Origin: Promethearchaeota archaeon
Lineage (GTDB): Archaea > Asgardarchaeota > Lokiarchaeia > Sigyniarchaeales > SOKP01
Direction of reading: 5' to 3'
Length of the DNA stretch: 16,064 nucleotides
Assembly (NCBI GenBank): GCA_048939015.1
Contig: JBHLPW010000087.1
Span: 1 to 16,064, forward strand
Numbering within the stretch: the first letter of the stretch is position 1; every line of letters begins with the position of its first letter. A program made the translations under genes and the position numbers. Below the pieces are notes generated by a model. The model was not told where the DNA came from and did no database searches. It was given only the letters and a program-made list of their open reading frames with translations. Below, piece after piece: positions 5,255-15,830 of this stretch.

Positions 5255-5965
5255 GTGGTTTCAAAAGAACAGAAAAAAATAGAACGTGTTATTAATTTTA
5301 TGAAAAAAGGTTTAACCTCCCTTGCAGATGATCTAGAGGAGACTGTAAAAGGAATAAATGATTTTATCAAATCATTAGCTAAAGCTCAGAAAGATTTAAA
5401 AGAAGTATCTGTTGTTGAAGAAGTTCATACTGTAAGTACTTCCTCTAAAAAAATAGTAACACCAACAAGTGAGGGTGCAAAAACTGCTGCTGCATCAACA
5501 TTATTTTCTTTGTTAAGTAGTGGCGGGAGTGCTCCAACTACTCCAGGTTCGGTACCTGCAGTTGCTACCGCAGCTCCAACACCTCCCTCGGGAGGAGGAC
5601 CTCCTAAAGCTCCTGCTGGTGGTGGACCCCCTAAAGCTCCTCCTGGTGGAGGACCCCCTAAGCGTCCAGGTTTACCCCCTGCTCCAAAATTACCTCCTGC
5701 AGGTGGTGCACCTCCTATAGCTCCTCCTGGCGGAGGCCCTCCCAAAGCTCCTGGTGGAGGCCCCCCTAAAGCTCCTGCTTTTGCTAAAAGACCTGCAACA
5801 GCCCCTGGCACTCCTCCTGCAGCACCTGGTGGAACACCTCCACCCGCGCCTTCCATGCCTGCTGCTCCTGCTGTAGCATCCCAAGCCGGAGGTGGTTTGG
5901 GTTCACTAAGAGATGAAATGCTTGATGAATTGAATCGCTTGAAGAAAATTATGAGAGGAGAATAA
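5255..5965 (+). CDS. Coiled-coil / proline-rich / C-terminal WH2-like protein (candidate actin regulator)
   Basis: GTG start with AGAGGA at 5237-5242. Heptad repeat at aa 9-51, Gly/Pro/Ala-rich region at about aa 90-205, and C-terminal SLRDEMLDELNRLKKIMRGE. Synonymous variation among the repeats supports this frame. The CDS is secure; the function is inferred. Confidence 0.75.
   Translation: MVSKEQKKIERVINFMKKGLTSLADDLEETVKGINDFIKSLAKAQKDLKEVSVVEEVHTVSTSSKKIVTPTSEGAKTAAASTLFSLLSSGGSAPTTPGSVPAVATAAPTPPSGGGPPKAPAGGGPPKAPPGGGPPKRPGLPPAPKLPPAGGAPPIAPPGGGPPKAPGGGPPKAPAFAKRPATAPGTPPAAPGGTPPPAPSMPAAPAVASQAGGGLGSLRDEMLDELNRLKKIMRGE
5591..5776 (+). repeat. Coding repeat GGGPPK(A/R)P x5 plus degenerate copies
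   Basis: ggaggaggacctcctaaagctcct, ggtggtggaccccctaaagctcct, ggtggaggaccccctaagcgtcca, ggcggaggccctcccaaagctcct and ggtggaggcccccctaaagctcct differ mainly at third codon positions. Confidence 0.9.
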
Positions 5966-5974
5966 AACCTTCGC

Positions 5975-5993
5975 TTTTTGTTTTTTCTTTTTT
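5975..5993 (+). terminator. Putative archaeal oligo-T terminator
   Basis: tttttgttttttctttttt begins about 10 nt after the 5965 stop. The AT-rich background lowers specificity. Confidence 0.45.
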
Positions 5994-6062
5994 AAAATAA
6001 CCACTATTTCTTTATATTGAATTGAAAAGAATTTTGAATTACTAATTAAAAAGCTATCATAA

Positions 6063-6809
6063 ATGTCTGATAACTCATATTTAATTTATGATGATAGGAC
6101 TCCTATTATTGTCCCAAAACGGATGATGATCTTTGCTGGTCACCCAGATGATGAAATAATATCTTGTGGGGGAACACTCCTAAAATATCAAAAACTTGGA
6201 ACCGATATAACTATCATTATTGCTACAACTGGTTTAGGAGGTTATGCCAAGGAAAAACATAAAGATAATATAGCTGAAAGAAGGGAAAAGGAATTAAAAC
6301 TAATAAAATCCTTATTAAATTGTGAGATTATTGAGTTAGAGTACTCAGAGTTACAAATTGATAGATCTAAAATTTCTCAGATTACTAATCTTATACGGAA
6401 TTATAAACCTCAAGTAATATTACTGCCTCATTATTCTGATTTTCACCGTATTCATAGAAATCTGTCATTAATTACACGAGAGGCAATTTATCATTGCAGT
6501 ACTGGTAAGGCATATGGTGGTCATCAAAAAAGTTGGACTCCTTTGGGAGTATTTTATTATGAATCTCCCTCATGCAAATTTCAATATATTGAGGGATCAG
6601 TTTTTATTATTGTTAATATCGAGAATTATTGGGAAAAAAAAAAAGAAATTTTCAATCAAGTTTATGTATCCCAAAAAGAAATATTAGAAAGAGTCCTTGA
6701 TTGGGCAGAGGATACTGCTATATTGAGAGGAAATGAAATTAACGCTGGTTATGGTGAAGCTTACATTCCTGAAACTACATATACTCCTTTAAAAATTCTA
6801 TTAATATAG
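6063..6809 (+). CDS. PIG-L/LmbE family deacetylase
   Basis: FAGHPDDEIISCGGTL metal motif, ATTGLGG, RREKE helix, IRNYKPQVILLP, second His motif DFHRIH (canonical HxDH), and C-terminal YVSQ...GEAY. Confidence 0.9.
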   Translation: MSDNSYLIYDDRTPIIVPKRMMIFAGHPDDEIISCGGTLLKYQKLGTDITIIIATTGLGGYAKEKHKDNIAERREKELKLIKSLLNCEIIELEYSELQIDRSKISQITNLIRNYKPQVILLPHYSDFHRIHRNLSLITREAIYHCSTGKAYGGHQKSWTPLGVFYYESPSCKFQYIEGSVFIIVNIENYWEKKKEIFNQVYVSQKEILERVLDWAEDTAILRGNEINAGYGEAYIPETTYTPLKILLI

Positions 6810-6887
6810 AAGTACGGAGATTTTTTTAATAATTAAAACAATATATTAGATATAATAATTTAAGCTAAATTTCAACTATATTTAGGC

Positions 6888-8009
6888 ATGGGAAACATAA
6901 CAGTTGTTCTTGATATAGGTCAGTTCAGCACAAAAATTGGATTTGCGGGTGAAGATTCACCATCACAAGTCTTCTTAACAATGGTAGGAACACCCAAATA
7001 TCAAAGTGTTGATGTTAGTTATGAATCTAAACATTCACGGGAAGATGAAATATATGTAGGAGATGAAATTCAATCAATTGGATTATATAAAATTTCCCAT
7101 CCTATTGAAAAAGGAATTGTTGTAGATTGGAATCATTTTAAGAACATTATTGATTATATTTTCTACAATTTGAGAGTGGATCCAACTCTTGTCAATGTAT
7201 TATTAGCGGTCCATCCATTATTTCCTTATAAAGATTTAGAGAAAATATTTCAGTTATTTTTAGAAAAATATCAATGCATGGCTTTTTATCCTGTATTAGA
7301 TTCAATGCTGACGTTATATTCAGGAGGTTTTCAAACAGGATTAATCGTGGAGATAGGAGATAGTAATACCCGAATAGTACCAATTTATGAGGGATATAAA
7401 CTAGAACATGCAGTACGGATTCTAGATATTGGAGGAAGAGTTTTAACTCATTATATGGAACAGATTTTGGAATCCATTGGTTGGTCCGTTGACTCTTCTA
7501 TTAGACGGGAACTTGTAAGAGTCTTAAAAGAAAAAGCATGTTTTGTTTCCTTAGATTATAAAGAAGACATAAAACGGAGTGAACAATATGAAAAAGAATA
7601 TTCTCTCCCAGACGGTTCTACGATCTCACTTAATAAAGAAAGATTTATTGTTCCAGAAATATTATTCAAGCCGACTTCAGAATTAGAAGAAGTTTCATTA
7701 CCAGCAGCAATAATGGATGTAATTGAAGAATGTGATTTAGATATCCGTCCAGACTTATTGAACAATATATTTCTCTCAGGCGGATCCTCCATGTTTCCTA
7801 ATATGAAATCCCGTATGTATCAAGAATTAGAATTGGAATTAGCAAGGCGTAAGAAGAAAAATTTAGGTATTCGAATTATAGCTCCAATGGAAAGAACTTT
7901 TTCTGTGTGGATTGGCGGTTCAATCTTAGCGATGATCCCTGAATTTTCGCAAAATTGGATTTCTCGTGCTAAATATTTTAATGAAGGAATACCACCTAAT
8001 CTTCTTTAA
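6888..8009 (+). CDS. Actin family protein (divergent Asgard actin-related protein)
   Basis: Colinear with eukaryotic actin: KIGFAGEDSP, YVGDE, PIEKGIVVDW, FYNLRVDP, VPIYEGY, LDIGGRVLT, KEKACFVSLDY, YSLPDG, ERFIVPEILFKP, CDLDIRPDL, LSGGSSMFP, APMERTFSVWIGGSILA. Confidence 0.95.
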   Translation: MGNITVVLDIGQFSTKIGFAGEDSPSQVFLTMVGTPKYQSVDVSYESKHSREDEIYVGDEIQSIGLYKISHPIEKGIVVDWNHFKNIIDYIFYNLRVDPTLVNVLLAVHPLFPYKDLEKIFQLFLEKYQCMAFYPVLDSMLTLYSGGFQTGLIVEIGDSNTRIVPIYEGYKLEHAVRILDIGGRVLTHYMEQILESIGWSVDSSIRRELVRVLKEKACFVSLDYKEDIKRSEQYEKEYSLPDGSTISLNKERFIVPEILFKPTSELEEVSLPAAIMDVIEECDLDIRPDLLNNIFLSGGSSMFPNMKSRMYQELELELARRKKKNLGIRIIAPMERTFSVWIGGSILAMIPEFSQNWISRAKYFNEGIPPNLL

Positions 8010-8125
8010 AATATCATAATTTATACCGGTGAAATATCCATATAACATTAAGATATTACATTTTGTTAAATAAATACTCTCAATATTAAATCATATTATT
8101 ATTATTTTTAAAGAGATAACTAAAT

Positions 8126-8467
8126 ATGGAAAAATTTGATGATAATAGGTATTATAAACCAAGCTATTCACATTTATTTAATAAAATAAAGGACATTAAA
8201 ACCCCTATAAAAAATGAAATCTTAATTGCACTCCTCGATGGTCATTGGCATTCAGAATTAGAATTAATAAGAGTCACTAAAAAACAGCATGGATTTGTAG
8301 GTCCTGTAACACTGGGAACTATGATACATGGTTTAAATCATACTATTAAAAATAATTATCTTCAGAAAAAAATCGTAAATGGTAAGTTATTTTATAAAAT
8401 ATCAGACAATTATGTGGGACTTACACGAGCAGCGTATAGATTTGACTCAAATGATTTTCTGAAATAA
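8126..8467 (+). CDS. Hypothetical protein, probable winged helix-turn-helix
   Basis: KNEILIALLDGHWHSELELIR (helices 1-2), GPVTLGTMIHGL (helix 3) and YLQKKIVNGKLFYKIS (beta wing) fit the wHTH pattern by eye. Confidence 0.55.
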   Translation: MEKFDDNRYYKPSYSHLFNKIKDIKTPIKNEILIALLDGHWHSELELIRVTKKQHGFVGPVTLGTMIHGLNHTIKNNYLQKKIVNGKLFYKISDNYVGLTRAAYRFDSNDFLK

Positions 8468-8501
8468 GATAAAACCCTATTAAAAATATTTCAAGGAAAA
8501 C

Positions 8502-8978
8502 CTAACCTTTTTTTAAAGTTTTCAATGCTATGATATTCAAGAGTAATATCATAATAGTAAAATAATATCCAAATCCAACTACATAAAGAAATAATGCGAA
8601 ATTCATTAGTAGTATAAAGAAAATAATGATTCCGAAGATCAAGAGAATTATACTTAAGAGGAGAATATTAATTTGAAATAACTTTATAGAATTACTCAAT
8701 TTTACTTTATTTGTTGATGCAAATATTGAACATATTCCAATATAAAAAAACATTATCCATATACCTGCAGATATAATTACTTCTGAGATATTTCCTCCTA
8801 CTGCTGTATATGCCATATTTCCATTGATCAAATAACCCCAGGAGTAACATTCTAAATTATTTAGAATAAAAATACTAAAAGATAGTTCCAAATTTTCTGG
8901 CGGATAAATTGGAATTTTAGCTACAAATGATAAAATTAGAGTAAAAATTCCAGCAACGATTCCTGATTTTATAGTCAT
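8502..8978 (-). CDS. Four-TM membrane protein
   Basis: 158 aa: TM1, a long loop, TM2, a short basic loop, TM3, GFGYY, then TM4. Confidence 0.7.
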   Translation of the reverse strand: MTIKSGIVAGIFTLILSFVAKIPIYPPENLELSFSIFILNNLECYSWGYLINGNMAYTAVGGNISEVIISAGIWIMFFYIGICSIFASTNKVKLSNSIKLFQINILLLSIILLIFGIIIFFILLMNFALFLYVVGFGYYFTIMILLLNIIALKTLKKG

Positions 8979-8994
8979 TTATCATGCCTCTTTC

Positions 8995-9495
8995 TTATTC
9001 AATTGGATGTTTCCAATAGCCTATTATAGCAATGATTAGATCTAATATTAAAATGTAAAACCCATAATTTAGAAAAATAAAAATATCTAAAATGTTTATA
9101 AAGGTTCCAAGAATTTCTAAGCTTAAAATTGGAATTCCAATGATTATATATAAGATAATTATGATTATAATAATAAAATTAAATAACATTAATTTCTTGC
9201 CTATTGGATTTTCTTTAAAAAAGCCTACTATTATTAAAATCGTTGCTGATGGCATTAACACAATAAATAAAACTCCTGTTAATAAATTGGCCTCAAACCA
9301 AGTTTGAAATACTCCATTTGTAATTACACCCAAAAAAAACAAGTGGCTATTTTGATAAGAAATTAATTGAATGGGTATTCTCACATAGAAATTTACATAA
9401 GGATTTTGAAATTGAAAATAAAAACCAAGTGGTATAAATTGTAGAAAAAATAAAGTATTTGTTAGGATTAAACAAAGAAATCCAAATTTATTCAT
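8995..9495 (-). CDS. Four-TM membrane protein, likely distant paralog of 8502-8978
   Basis: 166 aa with the same topology and NYGFY before TM4. Only 16 nt separate it from the next gene. Confidence 0.7.
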   Translation of the reverse strand: MNKFGFLCLILTNTLFFLQFIPLGFYFQFQNPYVNFYVRIPIQLISYQNSHLFFLGVITNGVFQTWFEANLLTGVLFIVLMPSATILIIVGFFKENPIGKKLMLFNFIIIIIIILYIIIGIPILSLEILGTFINILDIFIFLNYGFYILILDLIIAIIGYWKHPIE

Positions 9496-11881: not shown

Positions 11882-14800
11882 TTAAAACGGTAATGTAAAT
11901 GAAAATTTCGAACCTTTATTATCACCCTCAGAATTTGCCCAGATTTCACCTTGATGAGCATTTATTATTCCCTTAGTTATATAAAGCCCTAATCCAGTTC
12001 CAGAATCCTTAATACTTATATGATCATTAATAATAGGAGGCTTAATTCTTTCAAATTTCTTAAATAATCTTCCAATTTCATCTTGAGCTAGACCAATTCC
12101 ATTATCTTTTATCTCAAAAATATAATGGTCCTCTTTTTTTTCAGAAGATATCTTTATCCAACCATAATCTGGAGTGAATTTTATCGCATTTGAAAGTAAA
12201 TTTGTAAATACAGTGAAAATTCTTGTTTGATCTATGTTCAAAATAATTTCATGATCGATATTTAGTATTATTTCAAGATTCTTTTCATTGATCAAATAAC
12301 TGAGTTCATCAAGACAATCACTAATGATTTTACTAATATTAATAGTCTCTTTTTGTAACTTTAACTCATTTTCATCTATTTTCAATACATCTAAAAGTTG
12401 ATCCATCAAAATTTCTAATCTATTCACATTCCTTTGTACAGTTAATAAATCCCTTGTAATTTCGGCGTTAAGTTGATTTCGATATTTCATCAAAATATAA
12501 TCAGTATATCCAGAAATCGAGATTAATGGAGTTTTTAATTCATGAGCTGCCATTGTTATGAAATCATTCTTAACTTTATCAAGCTTTCTCAATTCAATAT
12601 TCTGTTGCCTTAATTTCATTTCTGATTCTTTTAATTCTTGTTCCAATCTGAATTTTTCAGTAATATCAGAAAAGGTTCCTTCAATAAGCATAGGATTGCC
12701 ATTTTCATCTCGTTTTAGGTGAGCATTTACTTGTATTACTATATTCTCTCCATTTTTTTTTTTTAACTGGAACAATATAATTTCTTATTACTCCATTTTG
12801 TTGTAATAGTTTATCATATCTCTCTCTATCCTCTGGTTTTTGCCAAGAAAATGGAGGTGATTGTCCAATTAAATTTTCATTAGGATCATACCCGGCTATC
12901 CTACAAAATGCTGGATTATGGTATAATATATTTCCTTCCCACTGTATCATATAATATCCTTCATCTAAATTAGTTATCATATTTCTGAAATTTTTCTCGG
13001 ATTCAATGAGTTGATTTTCCATTTTCTTACTCTCAGTAATATCTCGTATAATTGTGATTACTTGATTAACACGATTTTCACTAAATATTGGAATCTTCCT
13101 TGTTTCAGTGAAAATTTCAGTTGTATTTAACAAAATACTTCCCTCTGTAATAAGAGTTTCTCCACTTTCAAAAACTAATTTATATTCTTCGTGTATTTCA
13201 TCAGGTAAGAAAGGAAAAGCATCAAAAACATTCAGACCTACAATTTTTTTATCGATATCTAGATTTCTAAGCCAAGAATCAAATGCAGAATTAGCGAGAA
13301 TTATATTTAAGTTTTTGTCAATAACATGTAAGGGATCGCTCAATGAATTAATTGTAGTTCGATATTGTTGTTCCGATTTGATTAAGTCTTTAGTTCTTTC
13401 TAGTACTTTTTGCTCCAAATCTCTATTCAATATTCGAAGTTCTTCTTGAGAGTTCTTCAATTCCTCTTCCGCTCGTTTTTTTTCAGTAATATCTTGTATA
13501 ATTACTTGAAAAACAGTCTCATCTCCAATTTCAACGAGAGAATCCTCTACGTTAATCCACATTAGAGAACCACTTTGCGATTTGGCAATTTGGACTTCAA
13601 GTGGTTCTGGGATAATACCTTGCAATAGATATTGATATCTATCTTTAAGTAAGGGTAAGGTTTTTTCAGGTTTTATATTTAGATCTAAAAAATTTTTATT
13701 AATTAAAGTCTCTATTTTTCTATTAAATAATTTCTCAGTAACAGGGTTACAATCGATTATTTTTCCTTTCCTATTAATTAATATAATTGAATAAGGAGAT
13801 TTCTCGAATAAATGTCGATATTTTGTTTCTGATTCTTTTATTTTTTGTTCAGCATTCTTCTTATCAGTTATATTTTGTATAATCGCTTGGGTTAATATTT
13901 GGTCACCGATATTTACAAGTGAACTAGTGATTGAAAGCCATATTTTTGTTCCATCAACTCGAGTTATTTGAAATTCTAATGGTCCTAGTTTTTCTCCTGT
14001 TAAAAATCTCTTAAATCGATTCTTTAATATATTTATGAGATAATCAGATCTTTTTAACACAGATAATACATCAGAAAATTTTCTTCCTATCAAATCTTTT
14101 ATTTCTAAAGTTGATAGTAAATCATTCATAGTTGAATTACAATCGACTATTACACCTTCTTCATCCATGAGCCAAATAGCATAAGGAGAACTCTCAAATA
14201 AATGACGATATTTCTTTTCAGATTCTTTTAATTTTTGTTCAGCCTGTTTACGGAGAGTTATATCTCTCGCTAAATTTAATATTTTTTGTACTTTCCCATT
14301 TTCCTTCAATGGTACAGAATTTACTTCATATTCAAAAATTTCTCCACTATAGGCTTGTGCTTTTATTTCAACACCTTTGATCTCTTTACCAGAAATTATA
14401 AGTTCTCCAATTTTTCTTAACTCGTCAAGATTTTCTCCCACATAAAACTTTGAAAAATTAATACCACGAACTTCATTTAATGTTGTACCAATTCTTTCCA
14501 GTAAAGCAGGATTCATATCTAAAATATTTCCTTTAGTATCTGTAATAAATATATAATCTGGACTAGCATTGAAAATAGTCCGATATTTCTCTTCAGATTC
14601 TTTAATTTTTTGTTGTAAAATATATTTCTCTGTAATATCTCTTGCTAAGCCATTAAAGCCAATTTTATTCCCTTCTGAATCATAGCTTAAATACACAGAA
14701 GATTCGCATGTTACTAAAGCTCCATTTTTTTTCTTAAACTGATATTGGAATCCAGACTGGGGCTTTGAGGTACTAAAAACTTGACTATAAACATTAAAAA

Positions 14801-15830
14801 TTTTATCTTTATTTTCTTTATCAACAAAGTTTTGGTAATTTGAATTAAGCAACTCATTTTTCGAGTAACCAATAAGTTCAACAAACGCATCATTGAAAAA
14901 TGTAAAATTTCCTTCTAAATCAACTTCAAAATATGTTTCCTTAATATTTTCCAGGATTCCACGATATTTTTCTTCTGATTCCTTTAACTTTTGTTCTGCT
15001 ATTTCACGTATAGTTATATCTTCATATGTGACAAGTATTCCAACAACTCCTCCTTTAGGGTCATGTAAAGGAATACGATTTATCTCAAACCAAGTTTGTT
15101 TACCATTAACTAAAGTCATTGATTCTACAGTATTATATTCAGCAGAATTATTCTTCATGACTTCATTTTCTTTACTTTTAATAGATTTCACATTATCCTT
15201 AATCCATATTATATCTTCATCAGTACTCCCAATGATGCTAGTTGGTTCTGATATATGGTTTAGGAGGGCAAAATTCTTATTACAACCCATATAAACCAAG
15301 TTTGTGTCTTTCCAATAAATAAGTTGAGGTATATTGTCCAATACTAATTCTAACATTTCCCTTGTTTTCTGAGCAACACTTTTTCCTTCGCGTGTTTGGA
15401 GTAATTTCCAAAATTGAATTTCTGGCACATAATCTGCTAATTCACCGAATCTTGCTTGGCTCCTTTGCATTTTGAACTCAAGATCCTTAAATTTTGTTAT
15501 TTCTCTGCAAATTAGAAGAACTTTTTTTTTATCATCCTCATTATCTCTAAAACTTTTCCCTTTAACCTCGAACCACTTAAATGGATTACCTTTATATTTA
15601 ATTTGTGCATCTATAACTCCAAAACCAGTTTTATAAATATTTTTTATTAGCCGATTTACTCCTTTCAAATCATCAGGATGAATAAATTCATTAAAATTTC
15701 TTTTTGATGTAAAATCCTCAAAATTGATATATTCACACTGGTTTTTACCATTAATAATAAATATCAGATCATCAATATTTTCAGAAAATATTTGACCAAT
15801 TTTACTGTAACTTTCAAATGTGCTTGTCAT
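11882..15830 (-). CDS. Cytoplasmic multi-PAS (about 8) sensor histidine kinase, interrupted by a one-base frameshift at 12753-12764
   Basis: ORF 12705-15830 holds tandem PAS domains with ESEEKYR/RDIT linkers. ORF 11882-12775 finishes the last PAS and carries the H-box AAHELKTPL, N-box NLLSNAIKFT, G1 DNGIG, F-box LFKKF and G2 GTGLGL. Removing one A joins them into a 1315-aa protein. Confidence 0.9.
12753..12764 (-). repeat. A12 homopolymer at the kinase frameshift
   Basis: Twelve consecutive T on the + strand. A11 would restore the reading frame. Confidence 0.9.

What the first reader, a model, noticed from the sequence alone, without database searches (positions are those of the whole stretch)
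6912..7373. Actin homolog with a degenerate ATPase site (possible Arp-like pseudo-enzyme)
By-eye alignment to eukaryotic actin: P1 loop DNGSGxxK -> DIGQFSTK (S14->Q12, G15->F13); Q137 -> D138 (7299-7301); P2 loop DSGDGVTH -> EIGDSNTR (G158->S159, H161->R162 at 7371-7373); H73 -> K; TEAPLNP -> AVHPLFP. Established: Q137 and H161 position the water for ATP hydrolysis, and S14/G15/G158 contact the phosphates. Inference: this is not the conserved filament-forming lokiactin but a paralog with changed or lost hydrolysis, suited to a nucleating, capping or scaffolding role.
Basis: partly seen in the sequence, partly recalled or inferred. Interest (0 to 1): 0.7.

Follow-up and report, generated by a model that had tools for sequence, protein, structure and literature searches.

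The report
Lokiarchaeal actin paralog with rewired ATPase
This gene encodes a strongly conserved second actin of one group of Lokiarchaeia whose ATP-splitting and phosphate-release residues are all replaced, so it is probably an ATP-binding, Arp-like helper protein and not the filament-forming lokiactin; the function is untested.

Summary
Window 6888-8009(+) encodes a 373-aa actin-fold protein (Pfam Actin 309 bits; AF2 pLDDT 92; about 41% identical to actin).

The same genome carries a canonical lokiactin elsewhere. The window protein belongs to a separate, tight clade found only in two families of one Lokiarchaeia order. It is the ortholog of the published but uncharacterised 'ARP' UYP44126.1 of Ca. 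Lokiarchaeum ossiferum.

The changed residues are fixed in more than 120 orthologs: S14Q, G15F, H73K, N111F, Q137D, D154E, G158S, H161R, R177I. The gene is under strong purifying selection (dN/dS about 0.04). Its nucleotide pocket is as conserved as lokiactin's, so the site is remodelled, not decaying.

The phosphate back door, D-loop, hydrophobic plug and lateral contacts are relaxed or replaced. The barbed-face groove is conserved but differs from actin's.

Best reading: an ATP-binding, Arp-like paralog that has lost actin's polymerisation-coupled ATPase clock. This is inferred, not shown. Any nucleating or capping role is speculation, and an origin by in-order duplication of lokiactin is not rejected (AU p=0.08).

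The scan noted the same feature in at least 7 other genomes. Verdict: a new member of a known kind, of moderate interest.

The parts
6888..8009 (+). CDS of the actin paralog (373 aa plus stop), P0001; ortholog of Ca. L. ossiferum UYP44126.1
   Evidence: Pfam Actin 309 bits. AF2 pLDDT 92, pTM 0.89; actin Z 46.8, 41% id; both published qPCR primers of UYP44126.1 lie in the L. ossiferum ortholog.
6912..6935 (+). Phosphate-1 loop D9-K16, DIGQFSTK (actin D11-K18, DNGSGMCK): N12I, S14Q, G15F; D11, G13 and K18 are kept
7014..7049 (+). D-loop region: residues 43-49 have low model confidence, and residues 50-54 are a 5-residue insertion relative to actin. This is the most variable part of the clade.
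   Evidence: gap in the alignment; pLDDT below 50 at 43-49; entropy ratio 1.95.
7110..7112 (+). K75 at the position of actin H73 (sensor loop, phosphate gate)
7206..7226 (+). Pro-rich loop AVHPLFP (actin TEAPLNP): T106A, E107V, A108H, N111F
7299..7301 (+). D138 (GAT) at the position of actin Q137, which holds the nucleophilic water
7350..7373 (+). Phosphate-2 loop E155-R162, EIGDSNTR (actin DSGDGVTH): D154E, G158S, H161R; G156 and D157 are kept
7419..7421 (+). I178 at the position of actin R177 (phosphate back-door gate)
7671..7700 (+). Hydrophobic-plug equivalent P262-L271 (PTSELEEVSL): acidic, with no hydrophobic tip
   Evidence: consensus lines.
7842..7859 (+). Basic insert ARRKKK (4 residues longer than actin and lokiactin), conserved in the window's family
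7776..7799 (+). Adenosine-pocket motif SGGSSMFP (actin G301-G302 region), retained
8126..8467 (+). Context: conserved downstream 113-aa gene, weakly winged-helix (ArsR/AspA/TubR-like). It is adjacent to the paralog throughout the window's family and absent next to it in the sister family.
   Evidence: pLDDT 64; best E 1.3e-3, TM about 0.5.
6063..6809 (+). Context: conserved upstream PIG-L family de-N-acetylase gene
5255..5965 (+). Context: conserved coiled-coil / Pro-rich (GGGPPKAP repeats) protein with an invariant C-terminal helix ...LRDEMLDELNRLKKIMRGE (P0271). It lies two genes upstream in the window's family only.

Best explanation
The gene encodes a lineage-restricted actin paralog, an 'Asgard ARP' and the ortholog of L. 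ossiferum UYP44126.1. It keeps the actin fold and very probably still binds an adenine nucleotide. It has lost actin's polymerisation-coupled ATPase and phosphate-release timer.

Shown:
- It is a separate, strongly selected clade beside a canonical lokiactin.
- The adenosine/ribose pocket and the core phosphate-binding residues are kept (D11, G13, K18, G156, G182, R210, K213, E214, G301, G302).
- The water-activating triad (Q137, D154, H161), the phosphate-loop residues S14, G15 and G158, and the back-door gate (R177, N111, H73) are all replaced by other fixed residues.
- The D-loop, plug, lateral contacts and back door are relaxed or replaced, while the barbed-face groove stays conserved.

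Inferred:
- ATP is bound but hydrolysed slowly, or not in a polymerisation-coupled way.
- The protein does not build canonical dynamic F-actin-type filaments on its own.
- It acts through its conserved barbed-face groove on a partner, most plausibly lokiactin or an actin regulator, as an Arp-like subunit. A pointed-end nucleator or cap is one option.
For: Identity and clade:
- Pfam Actin 309 bits.
- AF2 pLDDT 92. The best structural matches are conventional actins: TM 0.90; Z 46.8, rmsd 1.1, 41% id, against Arp3 27%, Arp4 25-27% and crenactin 21%.
- The own genome has 3 actin-family genes. The canonical lokiactin lies on another contig.
- Clade X is monophyletic at 100* with a long stem (0.7-0.8), apart from lokiactins.
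- Orthologs occur only in family f1 (62-95% id) and sister family f3 (46-57% id) among 400 Asgard genomes.
- The UYP44126.1 qPCR primers match the L. ossiferum ortholog (PMC9834061).

Selection:
- dN/dS median 0.044 over 239 pairs.
- Replaced residues are fixed in 123 orthologs.
- Pocket entropy ratio is 0.43, versus 0.41 in lokiactin.

Loss of the actin clock:
- Q137D, D154E and H161R hit exactly the residues whose triple-alanine mutant has no measurable ATPase (PMC9646518).
- R177I, N111F and H73K remove the back-door hydrogen-bond network (PMC10643162). These positions are relaxed in X (ratio 1.22) but tight in lokiactin (0.31).
- The sister family goes further: D157 becomes A or S, and Q137 becomes G.

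Filament surfaces:
- D-loop ratio 1.95, lateral set 1.59, an acidic plug, and no HRKCF tail.
- The groove is conserved within X (0.65, p about 0.02) but matches lokiactin at only 10 of 19 positions, against 17 of 19 between lokiactin and actin.

Expression of the ortholog: PMC9834061 reports transcripts for all four L. ossiferum homologues, with lokiactin severalfold highest.
Against: - No biochemical data exist for any member of the clade.
- The replacements are chemically competent. Asp at the Q137 position could act as a general base. An acidic residue at the equivalent position is, from my memory and not tested here, the catalytic residue of ParM (E148), MreB and Hsp70. Arg at 161 could stabilise the gamma-phosphate.
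- A pocket as conserved as lokiactin's fits an active, altered ATPase as well as a constitutive ATP binder.
- The protein has no Arp-type large insertions and is closer to actin than to any solved Arp, so polymerisation is not excluded.
- The residue sets used for the interface statistics come from my knowledge of F-actin, not from a lokiactin filament model.
- The published lokiactin co-IP in L. ossiferum names profilin, gelsolins and an ARF GTPase as enriched, and no ARP (PMC13716822). This is weak evidence, because the supplementary table was not available.
Confidence: 0.55

Rival explanations
1. It is a second, independently polymerising cytomotive actin with alternative catalytic chemistry: Asp138 as general base, with Arg162 and Gln12 on the gamma-phosphate. 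It forms its own filament system with different kinetics. In the window's family this might be coupled to DNA through the adjacent winged-helix protein, in the manner of ParM/ParR or TubZ/TubR.
For: - The pocket is under selection as strong as in lokiactin, and the replacements are polar or charged and fixed.
- Overall shape is closest to conventional actin, with no large insertions.
- The gene order, actin-like gene followed by a small winged-helix gene on the same strand, is conserved throughout family f1.
- Weak fold matches of that neighbour include the centromere-binding adaptors AspA and TubR.
Against: - The D-loop is the most variable region. The plug is acidic, lateral contacts are relaxed and the C-terminal tail is missing.
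- Asp138 is not conserved clade-wide: it is Gly in the L. ossiferum group, where D157 is also lost.
- The winged-helix neighbour is absent next to the gene in the sister family. Its model is of low confidence (pLDDT 64) and its matches are weak (E at least 1e-3) and generic ArsR-type.
- No iteron or centromere-like repeat array lies in the flanking intergenic DNA.
Confidence: 0.22
2. It is a non-cytoskeletal actin-fold subunit of a larger complex, comparable in logic to nuclear Arp4 to Arp9. Constitutively bound ATP would be structural, and the protein would serve as a scaffold unrelated to lokiactin dynamics.
For: - The P1 loop pattern D-I-G-Q-F-S-T-K resembles, from memory and not tested here, the G-S-Y type P1 loop of nuclear Arps.
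- Structural Z-scores to Arp4 are high (41.4-41.7).
- ARPs are not named among the lokiactin co-IP partners.
- A DNA-binding-like neighbour is present.
Against: - Sequence identity to solved nuclear Arps is only 20-27%, against 41% to actin.
- There are none of their insertions.
- The barbed-face groove, the actin-ligand site, is conserved.
- No partner complex has been identified.
Confidence: 0.13
3. It is a decaying or redundant duplicate of lokiactin with no specific function (a true relic pseudo-enzyme).
For: - The catalytic residues of actin are absent.
- It evolves faster than lokiactin: 49% versus 77.5% identity between the same two genomes.
- An origin by duplication of lokiactin inside the order is not rejected (AU p=0.0835).
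Against: - dN/dS is about 0.04.
- The frame is intact in nearly all of about 120 genomes. Only two orthologs carry a single stop.
- The replaced residues are invariant, and the pocket is the most conserved region.
- The L. ossiferum ortholog was among the four homologues whose transcripts were assayed by RT-qPCR (PMC9834061).
Confidence: 0.03

Closest known systems
Ca. Lokiarchaeum ossiferum actin homologue UYP44126.1, one of three 'ARPs' in Rodrigues-Oliveira et al. 2022 (PMC9834061)
   Same: Ortholog. It is the best hit of the window protein in that genome (49% id) and sits in the same 100%-supported clade. The published qPCR primers lie in the gene. It shares G15F, S14Q and H161R and the actin-length architecture.
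   Different: The L. ossiferum group is more diverged at the site: Q137 is G (not D) and D157 is S or A. Its conserved neighbour is a Ras-family GTPase gene, not the PIG-L and winged-helix genes. No function is published for either protein.
Lokiactin (conserved Asgard actin; filament structure and cytoskeleton shown in L. ossiferum)
   Same: Actin fold, similar length, the same adenosine-pocket motifs, and presence in the same genome.
   Different: - 40.5% identity and a separate clade.
- Found in two families of one order, not phylum-wide.
- All catalytic and back-door residues are changed.
- The D-loop, plug, lateral contacts and tail are not conserved.
- It evolves several times faster.
Eukaryotic actin-related proteins (Arp2/3 as nucleator; Arp4 and Arp8 as ATP-binding, poorly hydrolysing subunits; Arp7/9 as degenerate)
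   Same: It works on the same logic: an actin-fold paralog beside a polymerising actin, with altered nucleotide chemistry and altered filament surfaces.
   Different: - Orthology to any Arp class is not shown. The identity from structural alignment is 20-27% to solved Arps against 41% to actin.
- It lacks their class-specific large insertions.
- It is probably a lineage-specific archaeal invention (AU test).
ParM/MreB-type bacterial actins
   Same: An acidic residue sits at the position of actin Q137 (stated from memory for ParM and MreB). In the window's family a small DNA-binding-like gene lies downstream.
   Different: Structural identity is only 10-15%. There are no centromere-like repeats. 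The acidic residue is not conserved across the clade.

Membership tests
Actin family (Pfam PF00022) | Profile match above the curated threshold over the whole domain | tested here: met
   309.3 bits against a cut-off of 27; residues 5-367 on profile positions 6-401 of 410.
Actin family (Pfam PF00022) | Four-subdomain actin fold | tested here: met
   AF2 model pLDDT 92, pTM 0.89. Foldseek TM 0.90 to actins. VIA Z 46.8, rmsd 1.1 over 340 residues.
Lokiactin (conserved Asgard actin) | Groups within the lokiactin clade and is the genome's lokiactin ortholog | tested here: not met
   The genome's lokiactin is a different gene. X forms its own 100* clade outside the lokiactins and is 40.5% identical to the own lokiactin. 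Caveat: descent from the order's lokiactins is not rejected (AU p=0.0835).
Lokiactin (conserved Asgard actin) | Canonical actin catalytic and phosphate-gate residues (S/T14, G15, H73, N111, Q137, D154, G158, H161, R177) | tested here: not met
   All nine are replaced. They are invariant in 14 lokiactins.
Lokiactin (conserved Asgard actin) | Present across all Asgard classes | tested here: not met
   Orthologs occur only in families f1 and f3 of one order, among 400 genomes.
Eukaryotic Arp classes (Arp1-Arp10) | Orthology to one named class in a phylogeny | tested here: inconclusive
   Only one named Arp2 and some unnamed Arp1-like representatives were available, and X does not group with them. 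No named Arp3-10 sequences could be obtained.
Eukaryotic Arp classes (Arp1-Arp10) | Class-specific insertions relative to actin | tested here: inconclusive
   The only length differences are a 5-residue D-loop insertion and a 4-residue basic insert. Solved Arps align at 20-27% identity.
Pseudo-enzyme (inactive ATPase) | Catalytic residues replaced | tested here: met
   Q137D, D154E and H161R, plus S14Q, G15F and G158S. Roles per PMC9646518.
Pseudo-enzyme (inactive ATPase) | Loss of catalytic activity | not testable with these tools
   Needs ATPase and phosphate-release assays on purified protein.
Pseudo-enzyme (inactive ATPase) | Relaxed constraint on the former active site | tested here: not met
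   The pocket is the most conserved region (entropy ratio 0.43, p about 0.001; lokiactin 0.41). Only the phosphate back door is relaxed (1.22).
ParMRC/TubZRC-like segregation module | Centromere-like repeat array next to the filament and adaptor genes | tested here: not met
   Only chance two-copy AT-rich matches in 5900-8700.
ParMRC/TubZRC-like segregation module | DNA-binding adaptor encoded next to the actin-like gene | tested here: inconclusive
   The neighbour model has pLDDT 64. The best matches are ArsR-type winged helices including AspA and TubR, at E 1e-3 to 1e-2 and TM about 0.5. The neighbour is absent in the sister family.
Arp2/3-type nucleation machine | Accessory subunits (ARPC-like) and an activator that binds the Arp | not tested
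   ARPC-like genes were not searched. A partner test with the neighbour's C-terminal helix was run; see Tried and rejected.

The most novel reading that the evidence does not exclude
The paralog is an archaeal, single-subunit functional analogue of Arp2/3 or a pointed-end cap. Locked in an ATP-like state, it would use its conserved barbed-face groove to template or cap lokiactin filaments. It would be controlled by the neighbouring Pro-rich protein with the invariant C-terminal helix in the window's family, and by the adjacent Ras-family GTPase in the L. ossiferum group. That would be regulated actin nucleation evolved independently of, or before, the eukaryotic machinery.
Probability: 0.12. 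Interest if true: 0.85.

Novelty: new member of a known kind. Interest (0 to 1): 0.45.

Why it matters
Asgard archaea build a lokiactin cytoskeleton, and cultured Lokiarchaeia use it for protrusions and crawling. The only regulators with experimental support are profilins and gelsolins. What the Asgard 'ARPs' do is unknown.

This work defines one ARP clade precisely:
- its range: two families of one Lokiarchaeia order;
- its ortholog in a cultivable organism: UYP44126.1;
- its signature: Q12, F13, K75, H109, F112, D138, E155, S159, R162, I178;
- the pattern of what is kept (nucleotide pocket, barbed groove) and what is released (phosphate gate, D-loop, plug, lateral contacts).

This turns the vague label 'ARP' into concrete assays: nucleotide binding without a hydrolysis clock, and an effect on lokiactin nucleation or end dynamics. 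If the protein does regulate lokiactin assembly, it would show that actin/Arp division of labour arose repeatedly, or already in archaea.

Tried and rejected
1. Partner test. The paralog was folded with the last 42 residues of the Pro-rich neighbour P0271, both as alignments. Score 0.00, no verdict. This is not evidence for or against binding.

2. Phyletic co-distribution of P0271 with the paralog. P0271 relatives are broader. There are full-length matches in families f5 and f7 and weaker ones in other classes. P0271 is adjacent to the paralog only in f1, and 44-273 kb away in f3. The two are therefore not a tight co-inherited pair.

3. Expression. No RNA holder is listed among public runs, only sediment metagenome DNA.

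4. Centromere-like repeats around the gene pair. Only chance AT-rich two-copy matches.

5. Protein Atlas feature search. It returned generic actin clusters and nothing further.

6. Pfam on neighbours. No family for the 113-aa, 158-aa, 166-aa, 236-aa, 549-aa and 568-aa products.

7. 'Careful' IQ-TREE run. It did not finish on one CPU, so the quick mixture-model tree and FastTree were used instead.

8. Phylogeny with named Arp1-10 and a crenactin root. This could not be built. The representative library carries no names and only the best 150 hits are returned. A name look-up of 10 representatives gave one Arp2 and two Hodarchaeota actins.

9. Geometry of D138, R162 and F13 in the model.

10. Supplementary Table 2 of PMC13716822 (lokiactin co-IP). 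I did not look for it: the tool description says no supplements are held for papers added after Aug 2026, and this paper is dated Sept 2026. Presence of UYP44126.1 could not be checked.

11. Source labels. The best hits are labelled as Thor-, Odin-, Heimdall- or Hermodarchaeota MAGs. This suggested a wide range. The genome search does not support it: orthologs occur only in two Lokiarchaeia families of the species-representative set.
Full report
**What is there.** The window has low G+C (0.22-0.39). ORF 6888-8009(+) encodes a 373-aa protein, P0001. It matches Pfam Actin at 309 bits over its whole length. It aligns end to end with yeast and other actins (E about 1e-87).

An AlphaFold2 model built on a 55-row alignment is confident: pLDDT 92, pTM 0.89. 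Only residues 43-49 in the D-loop are poorly defined.

Foldseek finds conventional actins first (TM 0.90, 40-42% identity). An exhaustive search of non-redundant PDB representatives ranks the matches as follows:

| Match | Z | Identity |
|---|---|---|
| Actin | 46.8 (rmsd 1.1 Å) | 41% |
| Arp3 | 42.1 | 27% |
| Arp4 | 41.4-41.7 | 25-27% |
| Crenactin | 36.4 | 21% |
| Arp8 | not quoted | 20% |
| Arp7/9 | not quoted | 19-21% |

The protein has actin's size and shape and none of the large Arp insertions.

**The observation.**
- P1 loop DIGQFSTK for DNGSGMCK.
- K75 for H73.
- AVHPLFP for TEAPLNP.
- D138 for Q137 (GAT at 7299-7301).
- EIGDSNTR for DSGDGVTH, with R162 for H161 (CGA at 7371-7373).

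With actin numbering, the full set of changes at positions invariant in both lokiactins and eukaryotic actins is N12I, S14Q, G15F, H73K, T106A, E107V, A108H, N111F, Q137D, D154E, G158S, H161R and R177I. K336, which already varies among lokiactins, is T here. Retained positions are D11, G13, K18, G156, D157, G182, R210, K213, E214, G301, G302, S303, M305, F306 and R335.

**It is a paralog, not lokiactin.** The genome (4.86 Mb, 125 contigs) has three actin-family genes:
- A canonical lokiactin on another contig, with DNGTG, H73, TEAPLNP, Q137 and DIGDGVAH.
- The window gene.
- A 504-aa paralog with a double zinc-ribbon insert.

The window protein is 40.5% identical to its own lokiactin and 42.6% to a eukaryotic actin. 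Lokiactin is 56.7% identical to that same actin.

In a library clustered at 50% identity the whole family collapses into one cluster (757 bits). The next hit scores 369 bits.

FastTree (117 rows) and a site-heterogeneous quick IQ-TREE (59 rows) both recover the clade with full support and a long stem (0.7-0.8). It lies apart from a monophyletic lokiactin group.

An AU test does not reject a tree in which the clade is united with the lokiactins of its own order (ΔlnL 18, p=0.0835). Given the narrow distribution, a lineage-specific duplication of lokiactin followed by fast divergence is as good an origin as an ancient paralog.

**Distribution and identity with a published protein.** Among 400 species-representative Asgard genomes:
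- Orthologs at 62-95% identity occur in nearly all 134 genomes of the window's family.
- Orthologs at 46-57% occur in the 14 genomes of one sister family.
- Everywhere else, only lokiactin-level hits appear (43-46%).

The sister family contains a closed 6.04-Mb genome. Its ortholog carries both RT-qPCR primers that Rodrigues-Oliveira et al. designed for L. ossiferum actin homologue UYP44126.1 (PMC9834061).

That paper places UYP44126.1 among 'ARPs' and reports lower transcript levels than lokiactin. It gives no function. Da Cunha et al. likewise split 'asgardactins' into five clades without functional analysis (PMC8850707). So the clade is known to exist, but its active-site signature has not been discussed in the papers I could read.

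**Remodelled, not decayed.**
- In 123 orthologs of the window's family the new residues are essentially invariant: Q12 96%, F13 99%, H109 100%, F112 98%, D138 99%, E155 99%, S159 100%, R162 100%.
- Within the genus, dN/dS has a median of 0.044, range 0.021-0.110, over 239 pairs.
- Only two of about 120 orthologs carry an in-frame stop.

Column entropies in 43 non-redundant clade members give the following ratios to the protein mean:

| Region | Clade X | Lokiactin |
|---|---|---|
| Nucleotide pocket | 0.43 (p about 0.001) | 0.41 |
| Phosphate back door | 1.22 | 0.31 |
| D-loop | 1.95 | 0.99 |
| Lateral set | 1.59 | 1.10 |
| Barbed-face groove | 0.65 (p about 0.02) | 0.45 |

The barbed-face groove is conserved within the clade. 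Its consensus equals lokiactin's at only 10 of 19 positions, whereas lokiactin and actin agree at 17 of 19.

Three further differences show in the consensus lines:
- The plug is acidic (PTSELEE...).
- A conserved basic insert (ARRKKK) is present.
- The HRKCF tail is missing.

The sister family is more degenerate. D157 is A or S, and in the L. ossiferum group Q137 is G. H161R and G15F/Y are universal.

**Mechanistic reading.** In F-actin:
- Q137 holds the nucleophilic water.
- D154 and H161 activate it through a bridging water.
- Q137A is slow, and the Q137A/D154A/H161A triple mutant has no measurable ATPase (PMC9646518).
- Phosphate leaves through a gate made by R177, N111 and the H73/G74 backbone. 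S14 switches between G74 and G158 (PMC10643162).

The paralog has changed every one of these side chains while keeping the adenosine pocket and the core phosphate-binding residues. The most economical inference has three parts. It still binds ATP or ADP. It no longer runs actin's polymerisation-triggered hydrolysis and delayed phosphate release. Its pointed-face and lateral filament contacts are no longer maintained. A conserved barbed-face groove points to a retained protein ligand.

That is the logic of an Arp. I put this at about 0.55. Which partner, and whether it nucleates, caps or scaffolds, is not shown.

**The main rival** (about 0.22) is an active ATPase with alternative chemistry that forms its own polymer. 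Asp at the Q137 position could be a general base. From memory, ParM, MreB and Hsp70 use an acidic residue at the equivalent position. The strong conservation of the pocket is equally compatible with this.

Arguments against it are the variable D-loop, the acidic plug, and the loss of Asp138 and D157 in the sister family.

A relic duplicate is contradicted by the selection data.

**Surroundings.** In the window's family the gene order is conserved down to 62-64% identity of the paralog:
1. PRTase
2. 88-aa gene
3. coiled-coil / Pro-rich protein
4. PIG-L deacetylase
5. paralog
6. 113-aa gene
7. topoisomerase
8. PAS histidine kinase

The Pro-rich protein (P0271) ends in a helix that is invariant across at least four Lokiarchaeia families (consensus LR[DE]EML.EL.RLK[KS]IM[RK]G). 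Earlier first-reader notes call it WH2-like. The spacing to LKKI is shorter than in WH2 domains. My single complex prediction gave no verdict.

P0271's family is broader than the paralog's. The two genes are 44-273 kb apart in the sister family. If P0271 is an actin ligand at all, it more likely serves lokiactin in general.

The 113-aa neighbour folds weakly (pLDDT 64) as an ArsR-type winged helix. Weak matches include the centromere-binding AspA and TubR. No repeat array is present.

In the L. ossiferum group the conserved upstream neighbour is instead a Ras-family GTPase (142 bits).

**Verdict.** The function remains inferred.

The scan's first readers noted the same signature in at least seven other genomes. 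These are orthologs of this clade. It is a new member of a known, uncharacterised kind (Asgard ARPs), of moderate interest, and it can be tested directly through the cultured ortholog.

Noticed in passing
window 5255-5965 (+); also L094-L102: A 236-aa protein with an N-terminal coiled coil, GGGPPKAP-type Pro-rich repeats (the G+C-rich island of the window) and an invariant C-terminal amphipathic helix. The helix consensus LR[DE]EML.EL.RLK[KS]IM[RK]G holds across at least four Lokiarchaeia families at 33-44% overall identity. No Pfam family. It could be an actin-ligand, membrane-binding or coiled-coil motif.
   Followed up: partly
window 8126-8467 (+): A conserved 113-aa protein directly downstream of the actin paralog in the window's family. 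The model has low confidence (pLDDT 64) and an ArsR-like winged-helix topology. Weak matches include the centromere-binding proteins AspA and TubR.
   Followed up: partly
L003 1477-2991 (G000 contig C69); orthologs L055-L058: Third actin-family paralog of 504-555 aa, with a double zinc-ribbon module inserted in the C-terminal part of the actin domain. It also lacks Q137 and H161 (T and W in this genome). It is conserved in both Lokiarchaeia families examined.
   Followed up: partly
L039 5326-5895, L040 3091-3681, L042 5280-5864: In the L. ossiferum group a Ras-family small GTPase gene (Pfam Ras 142 bits) lies directly upstream of the paralog's ortholog on the same strand. This is conserved in three genera. 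A Zn-ribbon/RING-like 452-494-aa gene lies divergently beyond it.
   Followed up: partly
window 11882-15830 (-): The PAS-rich histidine kinase is split into two overlapping ORFs (297 aa and 1041 aa, overlapping at 12705-12775). In related contigs the gene is called as one product of 1185-1193 aa. This may be a frameshift or a homopolymer error.
   Followed up: no
G229:C137:1813-2919 and G234:C142:30078-31187: Two orthologs of the paralog carry a single in-frame stop (TAA, TAG) in otherwise intact genes.
   Followed up: no
hits P0008, P0014, P0016, P0083: Close orthologs (74-89% id) are labelled by their sources as Hermod-, Thor-, Odin- or Heimdallarchaeota MAGs. Among 400 species-representative genomes the clade occurs only in two Lokiarchaeia families. 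The source labels look unreliable.
   Followed up: partly
window 8502-9495 (-): Two tandem genes of 158 and 166 aa without a Pfam family. They are conserved next to the locus in a close relative (L004) and absent from the more distant L006.
   Followed up: no
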